A stretch of DNA of 64,000 nt from an uncultured candidate division Zixibacteria bacterium (lineage in GTDB: Bacteria; Zixibacteria; MSB-5A5; UBA10806): NCBI GenBank assembly GCA_963801605.1, contig CAWDFP010000006.1, forward strand, positions 768,879 to 832,878. Direction: 5' to 3'. Below, piece after piece: positions 4,049 through 19,407 of this stretch; the stretch's first letter is position 1, and each line of letters begins with the position of its first letter. The notes beneath the pieces were generated by a model, which worked only from the letters and a program-made list of their open reading frames with translations, did no database searches and had not been told where the DNA came from. Made by a program: the position numbers and the translations under genes.

Positions 4049-4510
4049 GTGAAGGTATTCACATCAGCTAAATTTCCTTTACTTCTTGCTCTTCTTACTG
4101 CGCTTCTGACCTTATCATGCGAAACCGAGGTTAAGGAGTTAACTATCAGGGTAACAAGTCGTATGTACTCTAATTTCGAAGAAGAGCATAAGGTCAAGAT
4201 GTACGAAAAATTTCAGATATCCGATACTGATCTTGAGGCCGTGGCGGTTGAATTCTATCCTGATTTCGATCTCGATACCCTGACGTTTAAGGCTTATTCC
4301 AAATCGGATACGTTAAATAATCCTGCCGTCAAGATTCTGATCATCAAAGGAAATGAGAAAAAAGAGGAAGCCTGGGCGTTTTTGCCGGGGCTGGTTCCGC
4401 ATTTCTCACCTCGTTCTTTTATTGGTTTTGAACTGATGGATTACAAAACTGGCAAGAAATATATAAAGCCGCTAAAACCCAGTCCTGAAAAAGGGAAGGA
4501 AAATGAATAA
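4049..4510 (+). CDS. Lipoprotein of unknown function, first gene of the cytochrome cluster
   Basis: GGAGG at 4039-4043, 5 nt before an in-frame GTG at 4049. N-terminus VKVFTSAKFPLLLALLTALLTLSC has a signal peptide plus a lipobox-like LSC. The track start at 3920 lies inside the putative promoter. The stop overlaps the next gene's start (ATGAATAA). Confidence 0.6.
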   Translation: MKVFTSAKFPLLLALLTALLTLSCETEVKELTIRVTSRMYSNFEEEHKVKMYEKFQISDTDLEAVAVEFYPDFDLDTLTFKAYSKSDTLNNPAVKILIIKGNEKKEEAWAFLPGLVPHFSPRSFIGFELMDYKTGKKYIKPLKPSPEKGKENE

Positions 4511-7500
4511 AAGGCTACTAATCTGCATTGCGCTTCTATTTTGTTTTGGATCATCCTCCCTTTACGCGAAGCAAAAGGAATGTTACGATTGCCATCAAAA
4601 GGCAAAAAAAACCTTCGATTCGTATAAATATTCGCACGAACCTGTCAAAAGCAAAGATTGTGCGGCCTGTCATGATTCGCATGGATTTTCGCAAAAGCTT
4701 GTTCTGAAGGCATACGATAACAGCATTTGCACCAAATGCCACAAGGAATTTGCGGCGGGCTATCCTCCCAGCACGGCAACTTATGTTCATCAGCCTATGA
4801 AAGATCGCGTTTGTTGGTCTTGTCATGAGCCTCACGGCAGTAATCTTCCATCGCTGGTGCGGGTGGTAAATGACACTTTGGTTTGCTTTATATGCCATGA
4901 CGACGTAGGCAATCTTCAAAAAAAGACAGTGGTACATGAGCCATTCGCAAAAAATCAATGTTCGGCCTGCCACAGTGCACATGACAGTCAAGTCGCAGGG
5001 CTTCTAAATAAAAATCAAAAGGAGCTATGCGCCGGATGTCACAGCTTAACCGATAAAGATTATTTGGCTAAACACTCAGTTACGGGTATCGATAAAATCG
5101 ATTGTGTTACTTGTCACAATCCTCATGCCTCCGACAAACCAGGCCTGATCGATCCACTGGCACATGCTCCGATGGTAGAGGGTAGTTGCGAAAGTTGCCA
5201 TAGTAATTTGGCCGCGGGAGATACCACAATTTCGACCACGCCCGGCGAACTATGTGTTACCTGCCATGATGATATTGGCAAGAAAATGGCCATGGCAACG
5301 CCTCATCCGCCGGCGGCGGGCGGAGAATGTCTAACCTGTCATTCGGCTCATAAGGGTAAAGAAAAATCGTTATTAGTATCCAAGCCCGGCGAACTATGCC
5401 TGGGATGTCATACCGAGTTCGCCGACACGTTAAAACTCGAAGGTGTCCATACTGCATTAAGAAATGGCGACTGCAATCTTTGTCATGATTCTCACGGTTC
5501 TCCCAATAAAAGCCTGGTTAAGGATACATCGGATAAACTCTGTCTCGATTGCCATACCGCCCTCAGGGATTCGATGTCTGTTGCAAAGACTCCTCATCCT
5601 GCCGTGGAGACCAAGGGATGTCTCGGTTGCCATCAACCGCATTATTCCAAAAAGATGCCCCTTTTGGTTGATGACGAGAAGCTGATTTGCTTACAATGCC
5701 ATGACAATCTTAAAGAAGAGAGCAAGGCCGGAACGGTTCATATTCCGTTTATGTCGGGGCAATGCGGAGCCTGCCATAATCCGCATGGTTCATCCCAGCC
5801 TAATATGTTTCGGTCAAGCGTACCGGCCGTTTGCGGGCGGTGCCACAATGACGTTATCCAGACTCTCTCTTTGCCGTCAACACACCCGCCTGCCAAAGAG
5901 GGTGAATGCCTTTCATGCCACAAACCGCACTCATCAGATTTTGCCAGGCTTTTAAAGGCAAATGAAAGTCAAAGCTGTGCCGAGTGCCATGGCGATCTGG
6001 ATGGTAAGCTCGCCGTAAAGAATCTTCATACGCCTGTTAAGAATGGCCAATGTACAGCTTGCCATAATCCTCATGGCGCCAAAGAGGCAAAGCTTCTGCC
6101 TGCAAGCGGGAAAGATCTTTGTTTATCATGTCATAAGGATAAAGCGGAAGAGCTGAAAAAAGCAGTGGTGCACCAGCCGGTCAAAGACGGGGAGTGTACC
6201 ACCTGTCATTTAGCGCATGGATCAAATGAGCGTAATAATCTTATTAAACCTGTCGCCGAGCTCTGTCAGGGTTGCCATGATCCCAGTATCGATAAAATTA
6301 AAACAGCCCACGGCGGATATGTTGTCCGAGGTTCCAACTGCGTTACCTGCCATAATCCTCATGCCTCCGATCAACCGAAACTCGTTAATAAAGTTCAACA
6401 TGCACCGTTTGCGGAAAAAAGCTGCGATTCGTGCCATAAAGGTTTAGGCGAGGGCGGCAAGGTACAGTTAGTGGCTGAAGGCGACGCTTTATGCGCTCAA
6501 TGCCACGATGAAGTCGGCAAAATTATGGGGCAGCCGAATATTCACACGCCGATTAAAATGGGCCAGGGATGTATAAGCTGTCATGATCCGCATGCCTCGC
6601 GAAACGAGAAGATGCTTATTGATAAGGTCCCGACGCTCTGCTACAATTGCCACAGCGATTTACAAACGAAATTCGAATCCGATAAAGCCCACTCGCCTGT
6701 TAAAGATGGCAACTGTTTAGCCTGCCATGAAAAACACAGTGGTCCAAACAAGGGACTTCTGATTACCAAGAGCACACAACTCTGTTATAGCTGCCACACA
6801 AAAGAAAAAGAAAAGTTTACTAAAGAGGTAGCTCACAAGCCGGTGGCCGAGGGAAATTGTTTCCAGTGTCACGATGCTCATTCTACCGATAACAATTTTA
6901 TGTTAGTAAAGCCTGAAAGCAAGCTCTGCGTAACCTGTCATTCACTGACCACGCCGGCGTTTCAGCAAGCTCATCATAATTTCCCGATGGAGACCGCCGA
7001 ATGCGCCAAGTGCCATGATCCTCATTCAACTCCGAAAGGATCGGTCGCGCTGCTTTATCCTGATCAGCATAGTCCTTTTAAGATTCGAAACTGTAATGCC
7101 TGCCATGTATCTAACAAGAGTTTCGCCACGATAAAGAGCGGTAAAGAGCTTTGCCTACAATGTCACACCAAGTCGGATGCCCTCTTTGCCAAGAAAAATG
7201 TGCACAAGGCGGTTTCGATGCCGGGCGAATGTGTCAACTGCCATTCGCCGCATACAGGATTTTCCGCAAATATCCTGTCAAAGCCGGCGGGGGATGTCTG
7301 TTTTAATTGTCACAAAAAGGCGGAATTCGAGGGTAAATTCAAACACAAACCGGCTACCGAGAACTGCTCCATTTGTCATGAAGTGCATTCATCGGATAAC
7401 GCCAGCCTTTTAAATGGTGATGATGAGATAAAGCTCTGTCTTAAGTGCCATAACGCCGATAAAACGCACATGCATCCCATGGGCAAGGATTATAAGGATC

Positions 7501-7619
7501 CGCGTAACGGGGAAAGGTTAGTCTGTACAAGTTGCCATTCGCCGCATTCGAGTAATTTTGAAAATATCCTGATGGCCGATAAACAGAGGGAGCTTTGTGT
7601 GGCCTGCCATGCTCTGTAA
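4503..7619 (+). CDS. Giant multihaem c-type cytochrome, 42 CXXCH motifs (doubled-CXXCH / c7-polymer-like)
   Basis: Signal peptide MNKRLLICIALLFCFGSSSLYA. I count 42 CXXCH in 1038 aa, about one per 25 aa. They alternate regularly between LCxxCH(D/T/S) and (E/D/N/Q)CxxCHxPH(G/S/A) units. Confidence 0.95.
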   Translation: MNKRLLICIALLFCFGSSSLYAKQKECYDCHQKAKKTFDSYKYSHEPVKSKDCAACHDSHGFSQKLVLKAYDNSICTKCHKEFAAGYPPSTATYVHQPMKDRVCWSCHEPHGSNLPSLVRVVNDTLVCFICHDDVGNLQKKTVVHEPFAKNQCSACHSAHDSQVAGLLNKNQKELCAGCHSLTDKDYLAKHSVTGIDKIDCVTCHNPHASDKPGLIDPLAHAPMVEGSCESCHSNLAAGDTTISTTPGELCVTCHDDIGKKMAMATPHPPAAGGECLTCHSAHKGKEKSLLVSKPGELCLGCHTEFADTLKLEGVHTALRNGDCNLCHDSHGSPNKSLVKDTSDKLCLDCHTALRDSMSVAKTPHPAVETKGCLGCHQPHYSKKMPLLVDDEKLICLQCHDNLKEESKAGTVHIPFMSGQCGACHNPHGSSQPNMFRSSVPAVCGRCHNDVIQTLSLPSTHPPAKEGECLSCHKPHSSDFARLLKANESQSCAECHGDLDGKLAVKNLHTPVKNGQCTACHNPHGAKEAKLLPASGKDLCLSCHKDKAEELKKAVVHQPVKDGECTTCHLAHGSNERNNLIKPVAELCQGCHDPSIDKIKTAHGGYVVRGSNCVTCHNPHASDQPKLVNKVQHAPFAEKSCDSCHKGLGEGGKVQLVAEGDALCAQCHDEVGKIMGQPNIHTPIKMGQGCISCHDPHASRNEKMLIDKVPTLCYNCHSDLQTKFESDKAHSPVKDGNCLACHEKHSGPNKGLLITKSTQLCYSCHTKEKEKFTKEVAHKPVAEGNCFQCHDAHSTDNNFMLVKPESKLCVTCHSLTTPAFQQAHHNFPMETAECAKCHDPHSTPKGSVALLYPDQHSPFKIRNCNACHVSNKSFATIKSGKELCLQCHTKSDALFAKKNVHKAVSMPGECVNCHSPHTGFSANILSKPAGDVCFNCHKKAEFEGKFKHKPATENCSICHEVHSSDNASLLNGDDEIKLCLKCHNADKTHMHPMGKDYKDPRNGERLVCTSCHSPHSSNFENILMADKQRELCVACHAL

Positions 7620-7625
7620 ACGCTA

Positions 7626-8153: not shown

Positions 8154-8708
8154 TGTGGCTGGTATTATTAGCCGTTTTGATGGCGGTAAATGAAAATTCA
8201 ATTTCGCCGAATATTATGGCGGAGAATATTATCGGCCATACGGGGACGGTATTTCGGGAAAACGCCGGTTTGAAATCGGATAGCTGTACCATCTGTCACA
8301 ATGACGGGGGATTTGATTTGAGCGCGACCACCAACCAACTCTGTTACCACTGCCATGACGATGTCGAATCCAAATCACTAAAGAGGTTCAAGCATACGGA
8401 CGTTGTTAACCCCCAATATCCCGAGCGTAAGTTGCGAGGGATGCCATAAGCTTCACAAAGCAGGCGCGAGACCGTTACTGACTCAAAACGAAATGGAGCT
8501 TTGCCAGGGCTGCCATCCGGAAACAAAGCAATACCTATCTCATCCGGTTGTAACCGGCTTACAGGGACAGACGATTACCGGGAGCGATGGGCGAGTTATT
8601 ACCTGTGCATCACATTGTCATGATGTTCACGGCACGGACAATAAATATTTCTGCAAATTGGAGCCGGGGCGAGAATTGTGTATTTCATGCCATAAGGATT
8701 TTGAGTAA
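8153..8708 (+). CDS. Small multihaem cytochrome (5 CXXCH + 1 CX3CH); frame broken at a C5 run (fragments 8153-8449 and 8403-8708)
   Basis: Fragment 1 carries CTICH and CYHCH. Fragment 2 carries CEGCH, CQGCH, CASHCH and CISCH. Removing one C from CCCCC (8410-8414) gives a continuous ...KHTDVVNPNIPSVSCEGCHKLH... The C-terminus parallels that of the 42-haem protein. Confidence 0.8.
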
Positions 8709-8715
8709 GATCGAT

Positions 8716-9603
8716 ATGATTAAAGAGCGTACGAAAATTTCGCATTTTCTTATTTCGATATCTTTATTGATGTTGTTTTCCGTTTCGGCTGATGCTCAAT
8801 TCAGCGAACAGCATAAAGGTTACGCATTTGAAAACCCGGGCTTTTTAAGCATCCCCGGAGCACTATCATACGATAGCGGACGACATCGTCTGGCCATTGC
8901 CGACAAAGGCCGTCAGTTAGTTTATCTATTCGACCTCACCGATCACTCCTATCAAACCCTTGGAGCGGATAAAGAATTAGGAGAGCCTGCCGGATTGGCT
9001 TTTAGCCGTCAGGGTACATTATTTATCGTCGAGGACAAAAGCCCTTATATCCTAAAGTTTCCATATTCAATCGATCAACCGGAAACGCTAAAATTCGGAG
9101 ATAGTGGCAGCCCGATTCATCCTGGAAAGTTATTTATCAAAAACGATGGCGGTATATTAATTGCCGATAAAGACGATGCTGCCATTTATTCAATTGATTC
9201 CACCGGAGTACTTACCGGGAAGATCACCGAAAAGTTAAGGCAGCCAGATGGAATTATGATCGATCTTTCTGGAGAAATCCTTGTGGCCGATAAAGGTGTT
9301 GACCCTATTTTGGTATATAGCTCAAAAGGTGAATTCGAGCGTAAACTCTCGCGGCCGGAATCTCCCACATCGCAGTTTAGCTTTGCCGCATCGGGGTTGG
9401 CAATTGATCAAAGCGGTTGGATATATACTCTGGATATGACAAGAGAGCAAATCGTTACTTTTGACCCTACCGGAGTTAATCGTTTGGAATGGGCGCCTGA
9501 AGCGCCATTTTTCCCGGAGGATATCGCAATTGACCGCTATAATACGATCTATGTTTCAGAGAGCGGCTCAGGCAGCGTTCGTATTTTTTCGAGGAGCAAC
9601 TGA
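8716..9603 (+). CDS. Secreted NHL-repeat six-bladed beta-propeller protein (copy 1)
   Basis: Start chosen at ATG 8716 (MIKERTKISHFLISISLLMLFSVSADA signal peptide), just after the upstream stop. Six NHL-type blades, e.g. PGALSYDSGRHRLAIADKGRQLVYLFD, PAGLAFSRQGTLFIVEDKSPYILKF, PDGIMIDLSGEILVADKGVDPILVY, PEDIAIDRYNTIYVSESGSGSVRIF. Confidence 0.8.
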   Translation: MIKERTKISHFLISISLLMLFSVSADAQFSEQHKGYAFENPGFLSIPGALSYDSGRHRLAIADKGRQLVYLFDLTDHSYQTLGADKELGEPAGLAFSRQGTLFIVEDKSPYILKFPYSIDQPETLKFGDSGSPIHPGKLFIKNDGGILIADKDDAAIYSIDSTGVLTGKITEKLRQPDGIMIDLSGEILVADKGVDPILVYSSKGEFERKLSRPESPTSQFSFAASGLAIDQSGWIYTLDMTREQIVTFDPTGVNRLEWAPEAPFFPEDIAIDRYNTIYVSESGSGSVRIFSRSN

Positions 9604-9605
9604 TA

Positions 9606-10478
9606 GTGCATCCGATATTGGCGGCGATAATACTCAGTGCAAACATTGGATCGTCCAGGATTGAATTTGCAGCCGTTACTCCGGGGACGATCGATGGGCT
9701 TCCTATGAATAATGCCCAATGCCTGGCAGTCAACCCGCGCACTGAGGAATTTTTGGTGGCTGACGCCCTAAACGATCGCATCCTGGTTTTTGATACCACC
9801 GGTCTGCCCGTATTTGATTTTCAGCTTGGAGCGAATCGTCATAATCCCTTTGGGATTGTAGTCGATTCATCCGATCAGATAATTGTGGGGGCGATGGATT
9901 CTCCGGTGCTTTGGATATACGATTATAGCGGCGAGTTCGTAGATAATATCGAACTTCCCGATAGCGTATATCCGGGTAGGCTTTTAGCCTTACCAGGGGG
10001 CAATCTATTGGTTATAAACCGTTCAGGTCGGGGTGCGCTGCAAATTGATCACAGCGGGAATATCGTTTCGAAATATGAGGTATCCCGGGAAGAGTGTAAA
10101 CCTTCAGGCATATGTCTCGATGCAAAAGGAAATATCATTATAGTTTCCTCGGCCGGGCCGGTTATCACTGCATTTGATCATTATGGGAAAGCGATATTTT
10201 CCTTTGGGGAACATGGCCGGGAGCCAAAAGATTTTTCCCGGCCGACAGCCGCCGCGATTGATGACCACGGCAACTATTGGATAGTTGACTCATTTAGGCA
10301 TGAGTTAAAGCTTTTTGATTCCGATCATAATTTCAAGGAGGTTTTTGGACAACGCGGCACTAATAAAGGAGAGTTTTATTTCCCGGCGGATATAAAGATA
10401 ACTTCAAGCGGTAAAATGGGGATATTGGATAAGGGGTCAGGAAGGCTTCAGATATTTAGATTGAATTATGACAAATAA
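9606..10478 (+). CDS. NHL-repeat beta-propeller protein (copy 2)
   Basis: GTG start 3 nt after the upstream stop. Blades include AQCLAVNPRTEEFLVADALNDRILVFD, PFGIVVDSSDQIIVGAMDSPVLWIYD, PSGICLDAKGNIIIVSSAGPVITAFD, PTAAAIDDHGNYWIVDSFRHELKLFD, PADIKITSSGKMGILDKGSGRLQIF. Confidence 0.8.
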   Translation: MHPILAAIILSANIGSSRIEFAAVTPGTIDGLPMNNAQCLAVNPRTEEFLVADALNDRILVFDTTGLPVFDFQLGANRHNPFGIVVDSSDQIIVGAMDSPVLWIYDYSGEFVDNIELPDSVYPGRLLALPGGNLLVINRSGRGALQIDHSGNIVSKYEVSREECKPSGICLDAKGNIIIVSSAGPVITAFDHYGKAIFSFGEHGREPKDFSRPTAAAIDDHGNYWIVDSFRHELKLFDSDHNFKEVFGQRGTNKGEFYFPADIKITSSGKMGILDKGSGRLQIFRLNYDK

Positions 10479-11451
10479 GCTAATAAAAATCGGACTTACA
10501 GTTCTATTGCTTCAGTTGCCGGCTATTGGAGGAGAATACCATCAGCAATCGGATGTTATTTGCAGCGATTGCCATACAACTCACTATAGCGAGCATGGCA
10601 CGCTGCCTGAAAAGGCCGAACCGGGCGGGCCCTTCACCGAGCTTCTCCTGGTTGGGTCAATTAATAAGCTGTGTCTATCTTGTCACGATGGCACCGACCC
10701 GGCGGCTCCCGATGTGCTTTTCCCCGTGGCGATGTATAACGGATCAGGCTCCGAATACTCGGGGGCAGGCTTTTTTTCCAATGCGGACGGCGTGATTTCC
10801 GTTAATGGCCACTCTCTCGGTGTTCCGCTTGAGATTCCCGATTCTAATCCGGCGCGGACGGTGATGCTTTCCTGCATCAGTTGTCATGACGCGCATGGCA
10901 CATCCAATTACCGAAATCTGGTTTTAAATCCGGATAGTTTGGGTATCGACATAAATCTTTCAATAGGCGCCGATGTTTTTGAAAATGTTCATCCTCAGAA
11001 TCCGCCCGAAAGAAATGCGTCTATCCAGGCGTATAAATCGGGCAACAGCGGATATGTCGATAAAATTACTTTATGGTGTACAGACTGTCATAACGCTCTG
11101 TCTGTGGATAATCCCGGAAATCCGCCGGCTCATTTTATGCGTCATCCGTCCGGAGTGAGTATGGATGGCGTTTCCTATCATCTGAGTCCGGCGCATTGGG
11201 TAAGCGGAGAAGGGGACGGGTTTGGATTAGCCACCGGGGATGGCCTCGAAGGAATCCCCAGGGTACGTTTCCAGTCTGAAGGGGCGACTGATTATAACAC
11301 TGCGATTACGCCATCAAGAACGAATCAGGTGTTTTGTTATTCATGTCATTTTGCTCATGGCGGCCCGTATGAGGCTTCATTAGTATGGCCATATAAAACC
11401 AGCGGTGCAGCGGATATGTACTCGGGGTGTCAGCAATGTCATTACAAATAA
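10468..11451 (+). CDS. Secreted hexahaem c-type cytochrome (paralog family A, member 1)
   Basis: Signal peptide ...LLLQLPAIGG, then EYHQQSDVICSDCHTTHYSEHG. Six CXXCH (CSDCH, CLSCH, CISCH, CTDCH, CYSCH, CQQCH) in 327 aa. 11-nt overlap with the upstream NHL gene. Confidence 0.9.
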   Translation: MTNKLIKIGLTVLLLQLPAIGGEYHQQSDVICSDCHTTHYSEHGTLPEKAEPGGPFTELLLVGSINKLCLSCHDGTDPAAPDVLFPVAMYNGSGSEYSGAGFFSNADGVISVNGHSLGVPLEIPDSNPARTVMLSCISCHDAHGTSNYRNLVLNPDSLGIDINLSIGADVFENVHPQNPPERNASIQAYKSGNSGYVDKITLWCTDCHNALSVDNPGNPPAHFMRHPSGVSMDGVSYHLSPAHWVSGEGDGFGLATGDGLEGIPRVRFQSEGATDYNTAITPSRTNQVFCYSCHFAHGGPYEASLVWPYKTSGAADMYSGCQQCHYK

Positions 11452-13005
11452 AAAAACGATCCGAAATATATTTGGCGACGGCGCTCACCTTAGCGGTCAT
11501 TGTGATACTGGCCGGTTTAGTGTATGCCGATTCCGGCGCATATAAGACCACCAAACACGCAGACCCACAAATCGGAGTGAACCGCGATTCCAATCTTCCT
11601 CGGGGCAATTGTAGTCAATGCCATTTGGAACATAACACCGATAATCCCAACGATTATGCTTTATTCGCCCCGCCGGATAACTCACTATGTCTTTCGTCCG
11701 GTTGCCATGAGTACGAATATCAATGGCCTCCGGGAAACTATTACTGGAGCTATCCCGGCAATGTGCCCGACTGGTATAACTCGGCCCACGGATCATCGAC
11801 AGCGCTATTCACACCGGGCGGTAACCGCGAAGTGCGGCTTTGCGTGCAATGTCATAATCCGCACGGCAAAACCGATTCAACGTATGGCGTTTACCCCTCG
11901 GAGACAAGTTTCCTCGAAGAAGGCGGCTGCTATTCTAACGGCGGATTAATAGGGCAGGGATGCCATGGGAATAATTCAAGTAACAGGCCGATCGGGGCTG
12001 CAGATATTTATTCGGAAATTCTTAAATCATCGCGGCATAATGTCGAAGCGACCACCAAGGAGCATTCCTCTGATTGGATAGCGGTGTATCCTTACGGCAG
12101 AGAATCGCGAACGCCTGTCTCAGGTTTTTTCGCTGGTGATAGGCGGCATGTCGAGTGTGTTGATTGTCACAATCCGCACAAGGCGATTACGGGAACGCAT
12201 CAGCCGGCGACAGGAGAAATCGGCGGTCCGCTTTTGGGCAATTGGGGAGTGGAACCCGGTAGCAGCGCACCCTGGACCGTCCCAATGAGCTTTAATGCTG
12301 TTGATTTTTCCTCGATATCTACGGCCAGAGAGTATCAGCTCTGCCTGAAATGTCATAGTTATTTTGCCTATGGATATAGTCCTCCCACGGGATACACCGA
12401 TATCGCCCGCGAAATAAATCCGGCTAATGCTTCATTTCATCCAATTGAGGATACAATTCGAACCAACTCCTACACATCGCCGTCCCCAAATAACAATTTT
12501 ACCGAAACGATGGAAACACCCTGGGATGATGGCCGTCACAACCAGATGACATGTTCCGATTGCCATGGTTCGGAAAACGGTGCTGATCCCAAAGGCCCGC
12601 ATGGTTCAAACCAGCCCTATATCCTCATGGCTTCGCCGGCCGCAGGCGAAACCGCTTTATGTATCAAGTGCCATAAAGCATCGGTTTATGCGCCGCCGTT
12701 TGATCCGGGCGCACAGGAGACAGGCAGTAGATTCGATTTGCAAACGACGGGAAACGATAAGGCAAATCACTACTATCATGTAACAATCATGAGACTTGGC
12801 TGCCGGCAATGTCACGCGGCACGGCAGACGGTCCCCCCCGGCAATCCCTGAACAGCGGACCCCTTATCCGATTCAGGTGGGTTCGGCTCACGGAACTAAT
12901 TTGTTTGCCGGTCTACTAAATGGTACGAATATTAATTCGTATTCTCCGGGAAGCTGCGCTCCCACTTGCCATGATCCGGTCACTTATAATGCAGGGCCGG
13001 AATAA
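11427..13005 (+). CDS. Multihaem cytochrome (7 CXXCH plus CX4CH, CX10CH and CX3CH variants); frame broken at a C7 run (fragments 11427-12851 and 12796-13005)
   Basis: N-terminal signal/anchor IYLATALTLAVIVILAGLVYA. Motifs CSQCH, CVQCH, CVDCH, CLKCH, CSDCH, CIKCH, CRQCH, plus CLSSGCH (11688-11708), C-x10-CH (11928-11966) and CAPTCH (12955-12972). Deleting one C of 12833-12839 gives ...CRQCHAARQTVPPAIPEQRTPYPIQVGSAHGTN... ATG 11436 is an alternative start. Confidence 0.8.
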
Positions 13006-14624
13006 TGCCGAGAAGATTTGTGTTTGTCATTATTATGCTGGCATCATTAAAAGCTTCTGCCTCCGATTTGAGAGGAAATCTTAATCTCAGCTATCAAGGC
13101 ACTGATGGAGGGGCGGAAAATCCCGCGTCTTCAGTGTTCAGCCAGGTTGCCAATCTTTATATTACCGACCGTATCTTTTACGGCAATGATTTAACTCTGG
13201 GAGCATTTATTTTTCACACCAAAACCTCAGGAGCGGCCAGAGGCGATTTGCGCGTTAGATATTCTGCGAATCTTTTAGGCAATAGATATTCACTTTATTC
13301 GTCGTATTCACCATACACCCTGTACCGCCCCGGAGGGGGTGCACTCAAGGTACGAGTATTTCAAGGATCTCTTACTTACCGTCCAAAATTGCTCCCGGAT
13401 ATTATGGGCAGTTACGCCTCTACTCGTCAGTATACAACCGACAAACCGCGATCCCAGGACGGGCTAAATTATTCCTGGAATTTGGGGACTCAGTTTTCCA
13501 AATCGTTTGGATCGTTCAGCGGCGTCTATCAAAGGCAGCAAACAAAAAACGATCAGGCTCTCGTTCAAACCAAACAGATAACACGAACTATTAATTTGGG
13601 ATATGATATTTCAAAACAGTATCCGGCCAATGTTAATTGGTCGGCGGGATATAATTATATAGGTACCACTACAGAGAACCCGGGTATTCAAAAGGATAAT
13701 AGCCGAACGCATATCGGCTCTTTTCAGGTTGGACGGAATTTTGGCAAATGGTTTTCAATGTCAGGGGCGACGTCTGGCCGAATTTTCGATCTTGAGCATT
13801 TGTCCAGAACAACCAGGATCGAAGATTTTCTTGCCAATGGCTCGGCCAGCATGAAGCTTCGCGAGAACATCACATTTGTACTTCTTCGAGGCTATAATAT
13901 CAGTCAGAACAAAGAAGATTCTACCACGAAAATTATAAACGATTATATAAATCTGGGGGGTGTCTGGGGATTTTCGGTTGGACGAGGCGCCGATACGCGG
14001 CTGGCGTTGTCGAGATCGTATTATTATGCTTCAATCCAGGGGCGCAATATCGTTGATAATGGCACCCTGATTTTTGATATGAATCTTTATCGCCGCACCA
14101 CCGCGACGGTCAATCTGGGAGTTGCTCGTAATCAGAAGATTCTTTCCGGCTTTGGGAGATATCAAATGACGCGTAATGTCGATATTATTTCGAGGCCGCT
14201 GAGGTCAATATCGCTAAACATGAATTACCAGTCATCCGAAACCTCAAACTCGATCAATTTCAAGAACAGCAACAGCGACAATTTTTCTGTGAATCTAACA
14301 CATATTTTGAAATATTATTTTAATTATGCGTTAACTTATACGCGGTCTGCCTTTCATTCGCAAGGGATGAATAATTTCTCGACATTATCGGTGGCATTTA
14401 ATTACCGATTGAGCAATACGCTTTCGTTACTCGGAACGTATAGCAGGCGAGATCTGGGCGAATTATCCACAGCACTTGAAAGCGGTATCGATCAAACTGT
14501 GGGAGGCAGAATTTCCTGGATTACCTCACCAAGAAGTAATTTGACTTTGAATTATTCCGTTTCCAATATTAATACCACACGTCAAACACAAGGTTTTGGC
14601 GGTTATTTTGTGACGAGCTTTTGA
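13005..14624 (+). CDS. Predicted outer-membrane beta-barrel protein (candidate porin of the conduit)
   Basis: Signal peptide MPRRFVFVIIMLASLKASA. 539 aa with no Cys and no haem motif. Amphipathic strand-like runs rich in Y/G/N/S/T/R (LNLSYQG, LTLGAFIFHT, LRVRYSANLLG, LTLNYSVSN). C-terminus GGYFVTSF ends in Phe. ATG overlaps the upstream TAA (TAATG). Confidence 0.6.
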   Translation: MPRRFVFVIIMLASLKASASDLRGNLNLSYQGTDGGAENPASSVFSQVANLYITDRIFYGNDLTLGAFIFHTKTSGAARGDLRVRYSANLLGNRYSLYSSYSPYTLYRPGGGALKVRVFQGSLTYRPKLLPDIMGSYASTRQYTTDKPRSQDGLNYSWNLGTQFSKSFGSFSGVYQRQQTKNDQALVQTKQITRTINLGYDISKQYPANVNWSAGYNYIGTTTENPGIQKDNSRTHIGSFQVGRNFGKWFSMSGATSGRIFDLEHLSRTTRIEDFLANGSASMKLRENITFVLLRGYNISQNKEDSTTKIINDYINLGGVWGFSVGRGADTRLALSRSYYYASIQGRNIVDNGTLIFDMNLYRRTTATVNLGVARNQKILSGFGRYQMTRNVDIISRPLRSISLNMNYQSSETSNSINFKNSNSDNFSVNLTHILKYYFNYALTYTRSAFHSQGMNNFSTLSVAFNYRLSNTLSLLGTYSRRDLGELSTALESGIDQTVGGRISWITSPRSNLTLNYSVSNINTTRQTQGFGGYFVTSF

Positions 14625-14638
14625 TCTCTGGAGGATAG

Positions 14639-15223
14639 ATGAAAAATAAATGCCTTATTTTGGGAATTACATTGTTATTGGCAGTCCTCGGATGCGGCGG
14701 TCCCCGGACCTTTCTCAACGGCAACACAGATTGGACATTTTATAAACAGCTTGGCGTCTTGCCATTTGTTAATCTAACAACCGATCGTTTTGCGGGCGAA
14801 AAGGTGCAGTCGGCCTTTATTACCGAACTTTTTCTTTCGGAACGCTTTCAGGTTATGGAACCAGGAGAGTTTAACTCCAGAGTAGCCCAGGAACTTAAAA
14901 CCTCGGCATCGCAGCCCGTCCAGGAACTTTCCCTTGACCAGATCAAAACGATCGGTGAAAAAACCGGAGTTCAGGGGGTAATCGAGGGTGTTGTCAGAGA
15001 ATATGGTACTACCCGAGTGGGGCAAACCGATTACCCGGTCATTAGCTTAAGTATCAGAATGATCGATGTTCCTACCGGAACAGTAATCTGGATGACATCT
15101 TTCAGCAAAAAAGGCGGCCCTAATTTGCCGATCGTATCGATTGGAGAGACGCATACGCTAAGCGAACTGACGCAGAAGATCTGCCATGACATTGTTTCTG
15201 ATTTTGTAAGCCGTGCCTTTTAA
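14639..15223 (+). CDS. Non-haem lipoprotein, paralog 1 (TolB-N/CsgG/LpoB-like 'VLPF-N' type; family uncertain)
   Basis: MKNKCLILGITLLLAVLGC lipobox. Core motifs LGVLPFVNLTTDRFAGEKVQSAFITEL, VMEPGEF, GVIEGVVREYG, ISLSIRMIDVPTGTVIWMTSFSKKG. No Cys apart from the lipobox region and one other residue, and no CXXCH. Confidence 0.6.
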   Translation: MKNKCLILGITLLLAVLGCGGPRTFLNGNTDWTFYKQLGVLPFVNLTTDRFAGEKVQSAFITELFLSERFQVMEPGEFNSRVAQELKTSASQPVQELSLDQIKTIGEKTGVQGVIEGVVREYGTTRVGQTDYPVISLSIRMIDVPTGTVIWMTSFSKKGGPNLPIVSIGETHTLSELTQKICHDIVSDFVSRAF

Positions 15224-15234
15224 GGAGAATTCGG

Positions 15235-15810
15235 ATGAAGCTTTACTCGAAAACAAACTGGATAATAATTTTATCGTTGGCGTTTTTGTCATGCGGTCCA
15301 AAGCCAAGCGTTTACCTGCAGGATAACAATGGCGCCAAAGCGTCCAAGACGCTCGCCATTTTGCCATTCGATAATTACTCCGGAAAAGAGGATGCCGGCA
15401 AGCAAGTGGCCAATGCCTTTTTGGTGGAACTTCTCAAGAATCCATCGTTTCATGTCGTAGAGCCGGGAGAAGTCGATAGGGTGATGAGGGAGGAACGGAT
15501 TCGCTCATCGAGCCAGATTGATCTGAATGCGGCTCGGCTATTTAAAGATAAGCTTTCGTCGGATTATATTTTAATTGGCGCGGTCAATGAGTTTGATTAT
15601 CTCAAAGACGGCGATCGTGATGTTCCCCTGGTGGGATTTACGGTAAGGTTGCTCGATACCTCAAATGGACAGATTGTTTGGGCGGCCAACTACAGCAGGC
15701 GGGGGGACGATCACGAGCTTGTTTTCGGCTGGGGTTTGGTAAGCTCGCTTTCGGAACTAACTCAAATCAGCGTTCGCGATGCAATTTCCCGTATAAAGAT
15801 TGCACAGTAA
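15235..15810 (+). CDS. Non-haem lipoprotein, paralog 2 (same family as 14639-15223)
   Basis: IILSLAFLSC lipobox. Aligns block by block with the upstream gene: LAILPFDNYSGKEDAGKQVANAFLVEL, VVEPGEV, ILIGAVNEFDY, VGFTVRLLDTSNGQIVWAANYSRRG, LSELTQ. Confidence 0.6.
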   Translation: MKLYSKTNWIIILSLAFLSCGPKPSVYLQDNNGAKASKTLAILPFDNYSGKEDAGKQVANAFLVELLKNPSFHVVEPGEVDRVMREERIRSSSQIDLNAARLFKDKLSSDYILIGAVNEFDYLKDGDRDVPLVGFTVRLLDTSNGQIVWAANYSRRGDDHELVFGWGLVSSLSELTQISVRDAISRIKIAQ

Positions 15811-15886
15811 ACGTAACTCATTACCTCTCTTTTGGTTAGCTTGCCGTCTTAACGGTAAGAATAACGATAATTATTTGAAATAATAC

Positions 15887-15914
15887 TTGACATAGTAATT
15901 GTTACTAATATATT
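15887..15914 (+). promoter_or_regulatory. Candidate sigma70-type internal promoter upstream of the third NHL gene
   Basis: TTGACA (15887-15892), a 16-nt spacer, then TATATT (15909-14). It sits in the only sizeable gap (186 nt) inside the cluster. Confidence 0.45.
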
Positions 15915-15996
15915 TATGACGAATATCATAAATCCCGAGAGGATTTTTGTTAAACGCTCTTGTGAAGAACTTCACTAACCTCGATGTAGAAAAAAA

Positions 15997-16945
15997 ATGA
16001 GAAGATACTTTATCCCGCTGATTTTCCTACTTGTCAACCTGGCTGTCTCGGCCGAACCGTTGGTCGAGCCCAATGTCAGTCTTGTCAGTGTGGTTAAAGG
16101 TTATTCGGATCGTAAAGCATTTGGAAATCCCACAGGAATATTCCTCGATCCCATAAAAAACGAAATCTATGTCGCCGACGCCGGTAATCATCAGATTGGG
16201 ATATTCGACAAGCGCGGCACCAGCTTGTGGACATTCAAGCACTGGGTAACGGATAGCCGGGAGGAAGGCGCCAGGATATCTGGGCGATCCTCATTCAATA
16301 GTGGTTACCAAAGACGGCGACATCATCGTCAGCGACAACAAAGCTGATTATATCGATGTTTTTGATTATCGCGGCTCACTTCAATTAAAAATATCTCCTG
16401 AAGATTATCCTGAGGCAGGCCCATTCAGAGGCGCCATTCTGGCGCTTGATAAATCAGGCAATCTTTATATCGGCACGATTCTTGAAAAATCGGAAATCCT
16501 GGTGCTCGATTCCGATTATCAGCTTATCAAGCGATTCGGGAAAAAAGGTGAGGAGCCGCAGGATTTCCAGAATATCTCGGGAATCTGGGTGAACGGTGAT
16601 GGCAACATTCTGGTCACCGATGCCCTGGGCACTCCAATTTTGAAGAAATTCAATTCCAACGGCGAATATCTCGGTGGTTTTGGAGAGCATAGTATCGAGA
16701 AAAACGATTTTTCGTTTCCAAGCGGAGTGGTGATGACCTCAAGCGGGCGGATCTGGATCGTCGATCAACTTCGACAGGTAGTCAAATGCGTGAACGATTC
16801 GGGAGCTTTCATCACTATGATCGGCGGCCTGGGATATGCTCCCGGCGATATGTGCTATCCCTCCGGAGCCGCTTCCGACGGAGATTCGACGCTGGTAGTA
16901 GTCGAGAAAAACGGTAATAGATTTCAACAATTTATCATCAGGTAA
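15997..16945 (+). CDS. Secreted NHL-repeat beta-propeller (copy 3); frame broken once (fragments 15997-16347 and 16301-16945)
   Basis: Signal peptide MRRYFIPLIFLLVNLAVSA. Blades PTGIFLDPIKNEIYVADAGNHQIGIFD, then after a +1 shift near 16250-16290 (second frame open from 16250: ...APGYLGDPHSIVVTKDGDIIVSDNKADYIDVFD), ISGIWVNGDGNILVTDALGTPILKKF, PSGVVMTSSGRIWIVDQLRQ. Confidence 0.75.
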
Positions 16946-17059
16946 TAAAATGATTAACCCTAAAGTAAATATGCCAGAAGGAGGTGGTACGGTAGTTACA
17001 ATTTTCACAACTCAGATTGTTATTACACGCACTTATTATCAAATTCGAGAGGTTTTGTA

Positions 17060-18109
17060 ATGAAGAAAATTTTCGCACTAACTCTGGCAATGGTATTCGT
17101 TTTCGCGATGACGGCATTCGCCGGTGAATACCACATGGGAAGCTCATTGAGCTGCTACCAGTGCCATTCAATGCACTATAGCCAACAGCATATGTTTGGC
17201 TATGCTCACGAGGATAGTATTCCGTTCCTCGGCCCCGATGGACCATACAACAAGCTGCTTCGTTCGGATGTCAACGATCTTTGCCTTTCCTGCCATGACG
17301 GGGGAGATGTCATAGATGTTTACGGCGTATCCGAAGTCAACGCGACAGTTAACCGCGAGGGCGGTTTCCTTAGCAGAGTCGGCGACGGCAATGAGAATCA
17401 CGGCCATACGCTCGGAGCCACCAGCACTGCTCCCGGTAGCCTTCCAGCTTGGAGCCCGGATCAGACAGAGGGTCTTACCTGCGTCAATTGCCATAGCGCA
17501 CACGGCAGCGCCGGTTCAGGGAATCCGGATCAGGTTAAGGGTCAGTGGAGAAACCTGACCAGGAATCCTGGCAACGGAACCAACAGATACGTCAACTACG
17601 AAAAATCCAGCGAGCCCGTAAACACGACCCGCGACATCAAGTGGAGATCCTCCAGCGCCCACGACGCCGGCGCTTATGAAACCGACAATGTCGATTTTTA
17701 TGAGCCCGTGTCATCTGAATCCCGTTACGGCGCCTGGTGCCAGGGATGCCATACCAATTTCCATGGTAATTCCTCAAGCGACAATATGGCTAATGCGGAC
17801 GGATGGATCCGTCACCCGACAGCCGACGTTAATCTAGGGACCTCTGGCGCAACCGATTTTGCATCCCATGCTTATCGTCCGCAAGTGATGAGCCCGACAG
17901 GCAACTGGGGCACCCAGGGCGATTCCACCTGGACTCCGCCGACCGATCTTACCCCGACTTGCGTTACTTGCCATAAAGGCCACGGCAACGGTAATGCGTT
18001 CGGTCTCGTTTATATGGATGGCCGCCATCCGCGTACAGAAAACGGCGATGCGGTATCTACCAAGATTACTGCTACCTGCAAAATCTGTCACAGCCAGGGC
18101 GGTTATTAA
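17060..18109 (+). CDS. Secreted hexahaem c-type cytochrome (paralog family A, member 2)
   Basis: Signal peptide MKKIFALTLAMVFVFAMTAFA, then GEYHMGSSLSCYQCHSMHYSQQH. Six CXXCH (CYQCH, CLSCH, CVNCH, CQGCH, CVTCH, CKICH) in 349 aa. RBS GAGAGG. Followed by a strong terminator. Confidence 0.9.
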   Translation: MKKIFALTLAMVFVFAMTAFAGEYHMGSSLSCYQCHSMHYSQQHMFGYAHEDSIPFLGPDGPYNKLLRSDVNDLCLSCHDGGDVIDVYGVSEVNATVNREGGFLSRVGDGNENHGHTLGATSTAPGSLPAWSPDQTEGLTCVNCHSAHGSAGSGNPDQVKGQWRNLTRNPGNGTNRYVNYEKSSEPVNTTRDIKWRSSSAHDAGAYETDNVDFYEPVSSESRYGAWCQGCHTNFHGNSSSDNMANADGWIRHPTADVNLGTSGATDFASHAYRPQVMSPTGNWGTQGDSTWTPPTDLTPTCVTCHKGHGNGNAFGLVYMDGRHPRTENGDAVSTKITATCKICHSQGGY

Positions 18110-18121
18110 TAGTCCGCTTGA

Positions 18122-18155
18122 AGGAGGGTGTCTCGCACACCCTCCTTTTTCTTTT
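18122..18155 (+). terminator. Rho-independent terminator after the hexahaem cytochrome
   Basis: AGGAGGGTG (18122-18130), loop TCTCGCA, CACCCTCCT (18138-18146), followed by TTTTCTTTT. Confidence 0.8.
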
Positions 18156-18179
18156 CATACTTTTACTGCGGGATAAATA

Positions 18180-19298
18180 ATGATCAAACACACAATTGTA
18201 TTTCTTTTTGCGATGATTTCTCTTTCTACCGCCGGAACTATTTTACAGAATGACGGTTTCCCGCACAAACCCGGTTCCGGTTATCAACCCGGCGCAATAC
18301 TCGATACGCCGCCCTTTACGCCAGGTTATCACAATGGCAACGACATGGTTTGCTCAGATTGCCATATTATGCATGCCTCTATGCAGCATGATTATGGTAC
18401 CCCTGATTCTTATACCTATCCTTATAACGTTGAGCCTCCCGCAAATCATCTTCTTAAGGCTGCGAACGCCTTAACGCTGTGTCTGTCCTGTCACAACGAT
18501 AAGGTTGGTATTCCCGATGTTGTCGGCGCCGACGTCAATGGAGGGAGTGATCGTGCGGCGGGACAGCTTGGCGAAGTTGGCGAAATCAACAACAACGGGC
18601 ATAATATTGCTCCTGATCCGGGGGACCTCTGCAATCGATGCCATTTTGGAGGGGAGTTTCACACCGCTTCTGTAGAGTGTATCGATTGTCATGCTCCACA
18701 TGGTACCCGGTATTATCGCAATTTACAGTGGGCGTCATGGCCGGGTCATCAGCCACCTATTGTCGCTTTTGTCAGGCCTGGTTCGCAGGGACTTGACAAA
18801 TATCAAACTGCCAATGTTCGATACGGCGCTCCCGGTTATGGACGTGGTCAGGCGACCTGGAGAGAGGTAACTAATATCTGCATTGATTGTCATCATACCC
18901 TGGTTGACGCCTCGCCCAACGGTGGACGTTATACCAATCCGGAGCTTGATGATCATTGGAATAGACACCCCGGTACAAATAGCGAAGACGGCGCATATCG
19001 GCCTATTGGCGGTTTACCGGATGATCCCGATGTTTACACCGATCCTCAGAATTGGGTAAGCGGTGAAGGTTCCGAATTTTCTGTTGGACGAGTGCCTTAT
19101 ATCGTAACCGAGGCTCACTCATTTCAACAGGCGGACGTTGTTTCCACCAGTAACGAGGTTTTCTGTCTTTCCTGTCATAGCGCTCACGGCACCGATAAGC
19201 CGTTTGGTTTACGATGGAATCCGACCAATAACTCAACTCCACTGGCTACTGCTGGATGCCGTCAATGCCATAACAATACAGCGAGCAATATTCCATAG
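18180..19298 (+). CDS. Secreted heptahaem c-type cytochrome (paralog family A, member 3)
   Basis: Signal peptide MIKHTIVFLFAMISLSTA. Seven CXXCH (CSDCH, CLSCH, CNRCH, CIDCH x2, CLSCH, CRQCH) in 372 aa. Shares ...GYHNGNDMVCSDCHIMHASMQH and NNNGHNI blocks with the other two family members. Confidence 0.9.
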   Translation: MIKHTIVFLFAMISLSTAGTILQNDGFPHKPGSGYQPGAILDTPPFTPGYHNGNDMVCSDCHIMHASMQHDYGTPDSYTYPYNVEPPANHLLKAANALTLCLSCHNDKVGIPDVVGADVNGGSDRAAGQLGEVGEINNNGHNIAPDPGDLCNRCHFGGEFHTASVECIDCHAPHGTRYYRNLQWASWPGHQPPIVAFVRPGSQGLDKYQTANVRYGAPGYGRGQATWREVTNICIDCHHTLVDASPNGGRYTNPELDDHWNRHPGTNSEDGAYRPIGGLPDDPDVYTDPQNWVSGEGSEFSVGRVPYIVTEAHSFQQADVVSTSNEVFCLSCHSAHGTDKPFGLRWNPTNNSTPLATAGCRQCHNNTASNIP

Positions 19299-19370
19299 AG
19301 GAAATTAGAAGTATTGGAGTAGAGAGAAACTACCCGTAATTCGATTTTAATTAATAAGAAATTTTTGCTT

Positions 19371-19407
19371 AATAAGGTATCCATCCGGGTACCTTATTAT
19401 GTTTTTA
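19371..19407 (+). terminator. Rho-independent terminator closing the cytochrome cluster
   Basis: AATAAGGTATCC (19371-19382), loop ATCC, GGGTACCTTATT (19387-19398) with one mismatch, then ATGTTTTT. Confidence 0.6.

What the first reader, a model, noticed from the sequence alone, without database searches (positions are those of the whole stretch)
17060..18155. Stand-alone hexahaem cytochrome with its own strong terminator; one of three low-haem-density paralogs
Seen: ORFs 10468-11451, 17060-18109 and 18180-19298 share G(E)YH...(C)xxCH.(M/T)H(Y/A)S..H directly after the signal-peptide cleavage site. They also share a conserved N(G/H)GH(S/T/N) block and a C-terminal CxxCH. Each has 6-7 haems in 327-372 aa, about one per 55 aa versus one per 25 aa in the 42-haem protein. 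The middle paralog has a 114-nt upstream gap, a good RBS and a GC-rich terminator, consistent with separate and possibly high expression. Inference (speculative): the size, haem number and secretion fall in the range of filament-forming cytochromes such as OmcS (six haems). It could be the extracellular terminal element. I cannot assert homology from sequence reading alone.
Basis: inference. Interest (0 to 1): 0.6.

Follow-up and report, generated by a model that had tools for sequence, protein, structure and literature searches.

The report
OmcS-type nanowire cytochrome in Zixibacteria
This gene encodes a shortened but genuine relative of OmcS, the Geobacter six-haem protein that stacks into conductive filaments. 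It sits among relatives of the published OmcS assembly genes in an uncultured Zixibacteria genome, so it is a credible, unproven wire subunit of a system already known to be widespread.

Summary
ORF 17060-18109 encodes a secreted 349-aa cytochrome with six CxxCH motifs. It has two paralogs at 31-33% identity, a 114-nt upstream gap and the strongest terminator in the region.

A 68-sequence profile of the family hits only OmcS in the PDB (E 2e-11). Profile-profile comparison with an OmcS-family alignment gives 99.6% probability (E 1.7e-24). Foldseek finds only OmcS (E 6e-7). All six haem motifs and all six non-motif axial histidines of OmcS align column by column. These include H39, the equivalent of OmcS His16, which ligates haem 5 of the next subunit.

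The surrounding genes (4503-19298) are a reduced omcS-companion (osc) cluster:
- a fused OscI+OscJ (42 haems);
- OscF, OscG, OscK and GSU2505-like homologs;
- a barrel in the OscE position.

Relatives of the target occur in MAGs of at least 12 phyla, mostly next to osc-type genes. In a Planctomycetota MAG they sit inside a complete osc cluster.

Polymerisation itself is untested, and evidence for high expression is weak. Verdict: a new member of a known, published kind (Shen et al. 2025). Interest is moderate.

The parts
17060..18109 (+). Target gene: 349-aa OmcS-family hexahaem cytochrome. Signal peptide covers residues 1-21 (17060-17122).
17132..17176 (+). N-terminal OmcS-register block: H25 (17132-17134), haem-1 motif C32-H36 (17153-17167) and H39 (17174-17176). 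H39 is the equivalent of OmcS His16, the ligand given in trans to haem 5 of the next subunit.
   Evidence: HMMER alignment to 6EF8 residues 1-54; hhalign; merged alignment.
17282..18091 (+). Haem motifs 2-6 (17282-17296, 17480-17494, 17738-17752, 17960-17974, 18077-18091) and distal His H116 (17405), H148 (17501), H252 (17813), H308 (17981). The haem-5 motif at 17960-17974 equals OmcS C328xxC331H332.
   Evidence: every column is 100% conserved in the 68-sequence family and matches the OmcS-family column.
16946..17059 (+). 114-nt intergenic leader with a block conserved among Zixibacteria orthologs (about 16980-17010, includes a -10-like TACAAT) and the RBS GAGAGG.
   Evidence: A 227-nt metatranscriptome contig at 97.8% identity starts at 17018.
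18120..18148 (+). Intrinsic terminator hairpin followed by a T-rich tail.
10468..11451 (+). Paralog 1: 327-aa OmcS-like hexahaem protein. Its clade is also found fused to downstream-type cytochromes.
18180..19298 (+). Paralog 3: 372-aa OmcS-like protein with a seventh CxxCH. It sits on a long branch.
4503..7619 (+). 42-haem cytochrome, a fusion of OscI (26 haems) and OscJ (16 haems).
   Evidence: blastp E 4e-118 and 6e-63. By tblastn, OscI maps to 4506-6437 and OscJ to 6441-7610.
8587..10478 (+). Two NHL beta-propeller genes, homologous to the gene directly upstream of Geobacter omcS (GSU2505-like).
   Evidence: E about 2e-22 to 4e-21 for 9606-10478.
11427..12851 (+). 474-aa cytochrome with 7 CxxCH plus 1 CxxxxCH. 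Partner of paralog 1 (fused to it in P0255).
13005..14624 (+). 539-aa protein with no Pfam family, a probable outer-membrane barrel in the OscE position. Homology to OscE is not established.
14639..15810 (+). Two LpoB/CsgG-like lipoproteins, homologs of OscF and OscG.
   Evidence: blastp E 2e-24 and 3e-18.
15997..16945 (+). OscK-like NHL propeller gene, split by a one-base frame change near 16260.

Best explanation
ORF 17060-18109 encodes a Sec-exported, shortened member of the OmcS family of hexahaem c-type cytochromes. It is encoded in a reduced omcS-companion (osc) type cluster of a Zixibacteria genome. The most likely mechanism is as follows. After haem attachment in the periplasm, the protein is passed through an outer-membrane channel formed by the barrel (13005-14624) and the OscF/OscG-like lipoproteins (14639-15810). 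It then polymerises head to tail outside the cell, as OmcS does. H39 of one subunit completes the bis-His ligation of haem 5 (C301xxC304H305) of the next subunit, giving a continuous haem chain. That chain carries electrons between the envelope cytochromes (the 42-haem OscI-OscJ fusion, paralog 1 and the 474-aa cytochrome) and external minerals or partner cells. Shown here: family membership, conservation of all twelve axial ligands, and the osc-type gene context. Inferred: export route, polymerisation, trans ligation, and the direction and partner of electron flow.
For: (1) The 68-sequence family profile hits only OmcS (6EF8/6NEF) among 177,635 PDB sequences, E 2.2e-11. The mature N-terminus aligns in register: YH...CxxCHxMH against FH...CxxCHTMH. 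(2) hhalign against a 28-sequence OmcS-family alignment gives probability 99.6%, E 1.7e-24, over 275 columns. (3) The AF2 model (pLDDT 83.8, mostly coil) finds only OmcS by Foldseek: E 6.2e-7, TM 0.43/0.38. As a control, an AF2 model of OmcS itself reaches only TM 0.65-0.69 against 6EF8. (4) All six CxxCH motifs and the six non-motif His of OmcS (mature H2, H16, H110, H147, H257, H335) align with residues that are 100% conserved in the target family (H25, H39, H116, H148, H252, H308). In OmcS, 11 axial His come in cis and one, on haem 5, comes from the neighbouring subunit (PMC6584659). (5) The cluster carries homologs of OscI+OscJ, OscF, OscG, OscK and the GSU2505-like propeller of the Geobacter omcS operon. 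The osc operon is reported to fold, secrete and shape OmcS wires (Shen et al. 2025, as cited in PMC13194489 and PMC12977616). (6) In a Planctomycetota MAG, two target-clade genes sit inside a complete osc cluster (OscD-OscK homologs), between the OscK-like and OscD genes. They are the only OmcS-like genes in the 21-kb stretch fetched. (7) Of 49 species-representative loci of at least 18 kb, 43 have OscI/J, 42 have NHL genes and 34 have OscF/G-type genes within 10 kb. (8) The gene has its own strong terminator and a conserved upstream block. Soil metatranscriptome contigs from relatives fall mainly on this gene within the cluster.
Against: Homology does not prove polymerisation. In G. sulfurreducens only OmcS, of four related hexahaem proteins, is known to form a wire, and OmcT, OscC and OmcJ have unknown roles (PMC12977616). 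In the tree the target is not closer to OmcS than to OmcT or OscC, because the Geobacter proteins form their own clade across a long branch. The protein is about 80 residues shorter than OmcS at 22-25% identity, so the subunit interface may differ. No OscH (prolyl isomerase), OscD or OscB homolog is present in the window. Barrel-to-OscE homology is inconclusive. No multimer model could be made. The RNA evidence consists of short contigs from related strains, many on conserved motifs, and cannot measure expression.
Confidence: 0.6

Rival explanations
1. It is an OmcS-family paralog that does not polymerise. It would be a soluble or outer-surface hexahaem electron carrier, like the uncharacterised OmcT, OscC (GSU2501) or OmcJ, passing electrons between the 42-haem cytochrome and the outer-membrane complex. 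Another protein, or none, would form any filament.
For: Only one of four Geobacter family members is a known wire, and the osc block may originally have served secretion rather than wire building (PMC12977616). The tree does not group the target with OmcS specifically. All three window paralogs keep the same twelve His, so ligand conservation does not discriminate between them. OscH and OscD are missing from the window.
Against: Target-clade genes are the only OmcS-like genes found in the 21-kb stretch around the complete osc cluster of the Planctomycetota MAG. The clade is almost always a stand-alone protein of about 350 aa (110 of 111 full-length cluster representatives), whereas the paralog-1 clade is the one found fused to other cytochromes. 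It has its own terminator and comparatively more transcript contigs.
Confidence: 0.3
2. It is one subunit of a mixed filament or filament-plus-base assembly. Paralog 1 with the 474-aa cytochrome would form the base at the barrel, the target would form the shaft, and the seven-haem paralog 3 would form a tip or branch.
For: Three paralogs share one ligand scheme. Paralog-1-type modules are fused N-terminally to other multihaem domains (P0255, P0257, P0253), and the gene of the 474-aa cytochrome immediately precedes the barrel gene. Paralog 3 carries an extra haem motif. Anchor or terminator subunits have been raised as an open question for cytochrome wires (PMC13712944).
Against: No direct evidence. 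The ortholog cluster in a related Zixibacteria MAG lacks paralog 3 after the target. The Planctomycetota cluster has only target-clade copies.
Confidence: 0.08
3. It is a generic monomeric periplasmic multihaem cytochrome (c3, c7 or NrfB type) that only resembles OmcS through CxxCH motifs.
For: Pfam and NCBIfam report only generic families: Paired_CXXCH_1, Cytochrome_C7, and weak c3/NrfB matches.
Against: Those matches are short and at or below the curated cut-offs. Similarity to OmcS spans 275 columns, including non-haem regions such as APGGT...L.C..CH.PHG and RHP. No c3, c7 or NrfB structure was hit by sequence or fold.
Confidence: 0.02

Closest known systems
OmcS (GSU2504) of Geobacter sulfurreducens, the hexahaem nanowire subunit (PDB 6EF8, 6NEF)
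   Same: Six CxxCH motifs in the same order. All six non-motif axial His are conserved, including the His16 equivalent. The first axial His lies near the mature N-terminus (residue 4 here, residue 2 in OmcS), in the same register to the first CxxCH. The last CxxCH lies at the extreme C-terminus. The fold is mostly coil, the protein is Sec-exported, and paralogs lie in the same cluster as osc genes.
   Different: Only 22-25% identity and about 80 residues shorter, with trimmed loops between haems 2-3, 3-4, 4-5 and 5-6. It lies in a separate clade across a long branch. It has two extra invariant His (H44, H235). No known RNA family was found upstream. Polymerisation is not shown.
osc (omcS-companion) operon of G. 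sulfurreducens, GSU2505-GSU2493 (Shen et al. 2025, Cell Chem Biol 32:239; read only through citing papers PMC13194489 and PMC12977616)
   Same: Homologs of OscF, OscG, OscI, OscJ, OscK and the GSU2505-like propeller, plus three OmcS-like genes and a large family-less protein directly before OscF.
   Different: OscI and OscJ are fused into one 42-haem protein. No OscB, OscD or OscH is present in the window. OscG is single-domain (191 aa against 392 aa). There is an extra 474-aa cytochrome and a small HAMP protein. The gene order differs. The barrel is not demonstrably homologous to OscE.
[quoted passage not shown]
   Same: Same family. Pairwise BLAST E-values to OmcT and OscC are similar to those to OmcS.
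   Different: The Geobacter paralogs arose by duplications inside their own clade, so none is an ortholog of the target.
OmcE and OmcZ nanowire families; archaeal tetrahaem wires
   Same: Extracellular multihaem polymers. OmcE also uses a trans His and is encoded near a large barrel and propeller lipoproteins (PMC13712944, PMC9473688).
   Different: No sequence or fold match to the target.

Membership tests
OmcS family (hexahaem nanowire-type cytochromes) | Significant sequence relationship to OmcS over most of the length | tested here: met
   Profile vs PDB: only OmcS, E 2.2e-11. hhalign A2 vs A3: 99.6%, E 1.7e-24, 275 columns. Pairwise blastp E about 1e-7 to OmcT.
OmcS family (hexahaem nanowire-type cytochromes) | Six CxxCH motifs collinear with those of OmcS | tested here: met
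   Merged alignment, all 18 Cys/His columns shared.
OmcS family (hexahaem nanowire-type cytochromes) | Six non-motif axial His, including the one donated in trans to haem 5 (OmcS His16) | tested here: met
   H25, H39, H116, H148, H252 and H308 are 100% conserved in 68 sequences and align with OmcS H2, H16, H110, H147, H257 and H335. The 11 cis + 1 trans scheme is from PMC6584659. The identity of the trans ligand as His16 is from my knowledge of Wang et al. 2019.
OmcS family (hexahaem nanowire-type cytochromes) | OmcS-like fold | tested here: met
   Foldseek finds only OmcS, E 6.2e-7, prob 1.0, TM 0.43/0.38. The method's ceiling on OmcS itself is TM 0.65-0.69.
OmcS family (hexahaem nanowire-type cytochromes) | Head-to-tail polymerisation into an extracellular filament | not testable with these tools
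   Only single-chain prediction was available. No culture, proteome or micrograph exists.
osc (omcS-companion) assembly cluster | OscF and OscG lipoproteins | tested here: met
   E 2e-24 and 3e-18.
osc (omcS-companion) assembly cluster | OscE channel/barrel | tested here: inconclusive
   A 539-aa family-less protein is in the right position. blastp gives E 0.008 over 46 aa. The thin profile comparison gives probability 0.7%.
osc (omcS-companion) assembly cluster | OscI and OscJ giant cytochromes | tested here: met
   Present as one fused 42-haem protein.
osc (omcS-companion) assembly cluster | OscH prolyl isomerase, OscD propeller and OscB | tested here: not met
   No tblastn hit at E <= 1e-3 anywhere in the 64-kb window. 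The rest of the genome could not be searched. OscH and OscD are present in 10 of 49 related loci and OscB in none.
osc (omcS-companion) assembly cluster | NHL propellers (OscK, GSU2505-like) | tested here: met
   E 5e-13 and 4e-21.
OmcE / OmcZ nanowire families | Sequence or fold similarity to OmcE or OmcZ structures | tested here: not met
   Neither appears at E <= 10 in the PDB sequence-profile search or in Foldseek.

The most novel reading that the evidence does not exclude
The three paralogs may be a division of labour within one appendage, comparable to anchor, shaft and tip subunits of pili. Paralog 1, whose clade is repeatedly fused to a downstream multihaem domain, would plug into the barrel as the base. 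The target would be the repeating shaft. The seven-haem paralog 3 would be a tip or branch with an exposed extra haem. The target clade's two extra invariant histidines (H44, H235) would serve a contact or metal site that OmcS lacks. If so, this 'short OmcS' clade, found only in uncultured MAGs of at least 12 phyla, would be a distinct, minimal type of cytochrome wire with defined start and end subunits.
Probability: 0.12. Interest if true: 0.75.

Novelty: new member of a known kind. Interest (0 to 1): 0.4.

Why it matters
Public sources mostly give the members of this clade no name, or call them 'hypothetical protein' or 'cytochrome c3 family protein'. The clade has roughly 400 clusters at 50% identity and 238 hits in species-representative genomes, and all of the best 80 are MAGs.

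Linking the clade firmly to OmcS and the osc machinery gives a concrete marker for long-range extracellular electron transfer in several uncultured groups:
- Zixibacteria
- Planctomycetota
- Ignavibacteria
- Armatimonadota
- Gemmatimonadota
- Eisenbacteria
- others

The protein is a smaller subunit (about 328 mature residues) with a confident AF2 model. That makes it a practical target for expression and structure work on how cytochrome wires assemble.

The result also reinterprets neighbouring features of this window. The twin lipoproteins and the 42-haem protein are parts of a published system, not of an unknown conduit.

Tried and rejected
- **Single-sequence phmmer against the PDB** found nothing. 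Only the family profile reached OmcS.
- **Pfam and NCBIfam** gave only generic haem-motif families, so they could not place the protein.
- **Barrel vs OscE:** pairwise BLAST and a two-against-two profile comparison were inconclusive.
- **Key papers not held:** Shen et al. 2025 and Wang et al. 2019 are not in the library. Their content is taken from citing papers or from my own knowledge and is marked as such.
- **Tandem-fusion idea rejected:** I wondered whether P0257 and P0253 were tandem OmcS-like repeats, which would argue for head-to-tail stacking. They carry one N-terminal OmcS-like module followed by unrelated multihaem domains.
- **RNA evidence is thin:** no run holds this organism closely. 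Two soil metatranscriptomes give only short contigs from relatives, which is not enough to rank expression.
- **Riboswitch or other known RNA upstream:** none at E <= 1 in 3000-20000.
- **AF2 control on OmcS itself** was poor (pLDDT 53.6). TM-scores for this haem-packed, coil-rich fold must therefore be read leniently.

Full report
**1. The observation**

ORF 17060-18109 on the + strand encodes 349 residues.
- It has a typical Sec signal peptide (MKKIFALTLAMVFVFAMTAFA|GEYH).
- It has six CxxCH motifs, at C32, C75, C141, C227, C301 and C340.

- 10468-11451 encodes 327 aa with 6 CxxCH.
- 18180-19298 encodes 372 aa with 7 CxxCH.
- They are 33% and 31% identical to the target and share 58 invariant columns.
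- The shared columns cover the Y-H pair before the first haem motif, the H three residues after it, the G-H block and the C-terminal CxxCH.

The flanking signals are also as described.
- The upstream gap is 114 nt, with a GAGAGG ribosome-binding site.
- The hairpin at 18120-18148 is the best terminator-like site in 8000-19800. It folds at -19.6 kcal/mol, z = -4.75.

One correction: in the third paralog the conserved block begins about 25-30 residues after the signal peptide.

**2. What the protein is**

Curated libraries give only generic haem-motif families. The single sequence finds nothing in the PDB.

The family is large.
- 467 relatives were found by word search.
- 398 clusters at 50% identity were found by exhaustive HMMER.

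A 68-sequence alignment (A2) was used as a profile.
- Against all PDB sequences it hits one protein only, OmcS (6EF8/6NEF), with E 2.2e-11.
- The mature N-termini align in register: target family YH.g....C..CH.MH, OmcS F1-H2...C9..C12-H13-T-M-H16.

I recovered an OmcS cluster representative (P0270) using the OmcS segment printed as a query. I then built a 28-sequence OmcS-family alignment (A3).
- Profile-profile comparison gives probability 99.6%, E 1.7e-24, over 275 columns.
- A merged alignment shows that all six CxxCH motifs and all six conserved non-motif histidines of the OmcS family coincide with residues invariant in the target family. These OmcS histidines, in mature numbering, are H2, H16, H110, H147, H257 and H335. 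The matching target residues are H25, H39, H116, H148, H252 and H308.

In the OmcS filament all twelve axial ligands are His. Eleven come from the same chain and one, on haem 5, comes from the neighbouring subunit (PMC6584659; also PMC9473688). From my knowledge of Wang et al. 2019, the donated residue is His16, which corresponds to H39 here. Haem 5 corresponds to C301xxC304H305.

The structural evidence agrees.
- The AF2 model built on A2 is confident (pLDDT 83.8, pTM 0.83) and almost all coil, as OmcS is.
- Foldseek against the PDB returns only OmcS at a significant level: E 6.2e-7, TM 0.43/0.38.
- As a control, an AF2 model of OmcS itself was poor (pLDDT 53.6) and matched the real structure at only TM 0.65-0.69. 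A TM of 0.43 for a 16%-identical, 80-residue-shorter relative is therefore consistent with the same fold.
- OmcE and OmcZ were not hit by either method.

**3. Context**

I fetched the Geobacter omcS locus. Its gene order is:
- a GSU2505-like propeller
- omcS
- omcT
- OscB
- OscC (OmcS-like)
- OscD (propeller)
- OscE (718 aa, no Pfam family)
- OscF (LpoB/GNA1162-like)
- OscG
- OscH (rotamase)
- OscI (26 CxxCH)
- OscJ (16 CxxCH)
- OscK (NHL)

Citing papers state that this osc operon is proposed to fold (OscH), secrete (OscE, OscF, OscG) and shape (OscD) OmcS nanowires (PMC13194489). They also state that the eight-gene block GSU2500-2493 always accompanies a GSU2501-type hexahaem gene (PMC12977616).

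BLAST between the two loci gives these matches:

| Window gene | Geobacter match | Result |
|---|---|---|
| 4503-7619 (42 haems) | OscI, then OscJ | E 4e-118 and 6e-63; OscI maps to 4506-6437, OscJ to 6441-7610; 26 + 16 = 42 |
| 14639-15223 | OscF | E 2e-24 |
| 15235-15810 | OscG | E 3e-18 |
| 16301-16945 | OscK | E 5e-13 |
| 9606-10478 | GSU2505-like propeller | E 4e-21 |
| three hexahaem paralogs | OmcS / OmcT / OscC | E about 1e-7 |

- No OscB, OscD or OscH homolog lies in the window.
- The 539-aa protein before the OscF homolog is positionally equivalent to OscE, but homology is not established.

**4. Relatives elsewhere**

The closest named relatives (82, 65, 65 and 60% identity) are Zixibacteria MAGs, so the window is from that phylum.

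A 65% ortholog lies in the same gene order. It is followed by an NrfCD-like module and a c3-type cytochrome.

A Planctomycetota MAG has a complete osc cluster: OscF, G, H, I (26 haems), J (16 haems), an OscK-like NHL gene, then two hexahaem genes, then OscD and OscE. Both hexahaem genes belong to the target clade (43% and 38% identity to the target, against 26-28% to the other window paralogs).

The scan of species-representative genomes found 238 relatives.
- All of the best 80 are MAGs. They come from Zixibacteria, Planctomycetota, Ignavibacteria, Armatimonadota, Gemmatimonadota, Eisenbacteria, Krumholzibacteriia, Latescibacterota, Acidobacteriota, Fibrobacteraceae, Deltaproteobacteria and others.
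- Among the 49 loci of at least 18 kb, the counts of osc-type genes within 10 kb were as follows:

| Gene type | Loci (of 49) |
|---|---|
| OscI/J-type | 43 |
| OscK/GSU2505-type NHL | 42 |
| OscF/G-type | 34 |
| recognisable barrel | 19 |
| OscH | 10 |
| OscD | 10 |
| OscB | 0 |

**5. Which paralog?**

A maximum-likelihood tree separates the Geobacter-type proteins (OmcS, OmcT, OscC and relatives of about 430 aa) from a 'short' clade by a long branch. The short clade holds all three window paralogs. Orthology therefore cannot say which window gene equals OmcS.

Within the short clade:
- The target belongs to a well-supported group of stand-alone proteins of about 350 aa. In one search, 110 of 111 full-length cluster representatives are closest to it.
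- Paralog 1 groups with N-terminal modules of fusion proteins. P0255 (752 aa) equals paralog 1 plus the 474-aa-type cytochrome. P0257 and P0253 are giant cytochromes.
- Paralog 3 is a long branch with an extra haem motif.

These points, together with the Planctomycetota cluster and the target's own terminator, make the target the best candidate for the repeating subunit.

**6. Expression**

No run holds this organism closely.
- In one soil metatranscriptome, contigs from relatives at 80% identity or more fall mainly on the target gene (bin depths 2.4-6.9) and hardly on the rest of 8000-19800 (0-1.4).
- One 227-nt contig at 97.8% identity covers 17018-17244.
- A second run gives a near-identical 157-nt contig in paralog 3.
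- Many of the matches sit on conserved motifs, so this is only weak support for higher expression.

A block about 55-85 nt upstream of the ATG is conserved in four or five Zixibacteria orthologs. This is compatible with a promoter or operator. No Rfam family matches.

**7. Verdict**

Family membership and osc-type context are firmly supported (about 0.95). That the protein polymerises into an extracellular wire is a reasonable inference (about 0.55-0.6), with a non-polymerising paralog as the main rival.

The system is published and described as widespread (Shen et al. 2025, title and citing papers). Earlier notes of this scan list many similar clusters. This is therefore a new member of a known kind.

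Features particular to this case:
- the shortened subunit
- two extra invariant histidines
- the OscI-OscJ fusion
- the lack of OscB, OscD and OscH nearby
- three diverged paralogs, one of them of a type found fused to other cytochromes

Noticed in passing
window 4503-7619: The 42-haem protein is a head-to-tail fusion of OscI (26 haems) and OscJ (16 haems) of the Geobacter osc operon. OscI maps to 4506-6437 and OscJ to 6441-7610.
   Followed up: yes
window 14639-15810: The twin haem-free lipoproteins are homologs of OscF and OscG (E 2e-24, 3e-18). They therefore belong to the published OmcS secretion machinery rather than to an undescribed conduit.
   Followed up: yes
window 15997-16945: The OscK-like NHL propeller gene is split into two ORFs by a one-base frame change near 16260. 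The ortholog in a related MAG (L004 9071-9991) is intact at 306 aa. This is probably an assembly error or a recent pseudogene.
   Followed up: partly
window 10468-12851; proteins P0255, P0257, P0253: Paralog 1 and the overlapping 474-aa cytochrome occur as a single fused protein elsewhere (P0255, 752 aa). Paralog-1-type modules also head giant cytochromes of 1879 and 2523 aa. This suggests that this paralog works as an adaptor or base rather than as a repeating subunit.
   Followed up: partly
window 18180-19298: Paralog 3 carries a seventh CxxCH (CNRCH) inserted between the H116-equivalent and haem 3, has a longer N-terminal stretch, and sits on a very long branch.
   Followed up: no
window 17189-17191 (H44) and 17762-17764 (H235): Two further histidines are invariant in the 68-sequence target clade. 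They are not part of the twelve OmcS axial ligands. H44 has no OmcS equivalent, and H235 aligns with OmcS H247, which is only 43% conserved. Their role is unknown.
   Followed up: no
window 16980-17010: A conserved block (AGGAGGTGG..AAGTTAGT.AAAATTTTCAC) lies 55-85 nt upstream of the start codon in four or five Zixibacteria orthologs. It may be a promoter or operator. A transcript contig from a close relative starts at 17018.
   Followed up: partly
L004 11621-14938: In a related Zixibacteria MAG the target ortholog is followed by an NrfC-like ferredoxin, an NrfD-like membrane protein and a c3-type cytochrome. This is a plausible inner-membrane quinone link for the same pathway. It is not present at this position in the window.
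   Followed up: no
L006 (Planctomycetota MAG JACKHP010000009.1) 1650-16153: A complete osc-type cluster (OscF, G, H, I, J, an OscK-like NHL gene, two target-clade hexahaem genes, OscD, OscE) in a Planctomycetota MAG.
   Followed up: partly
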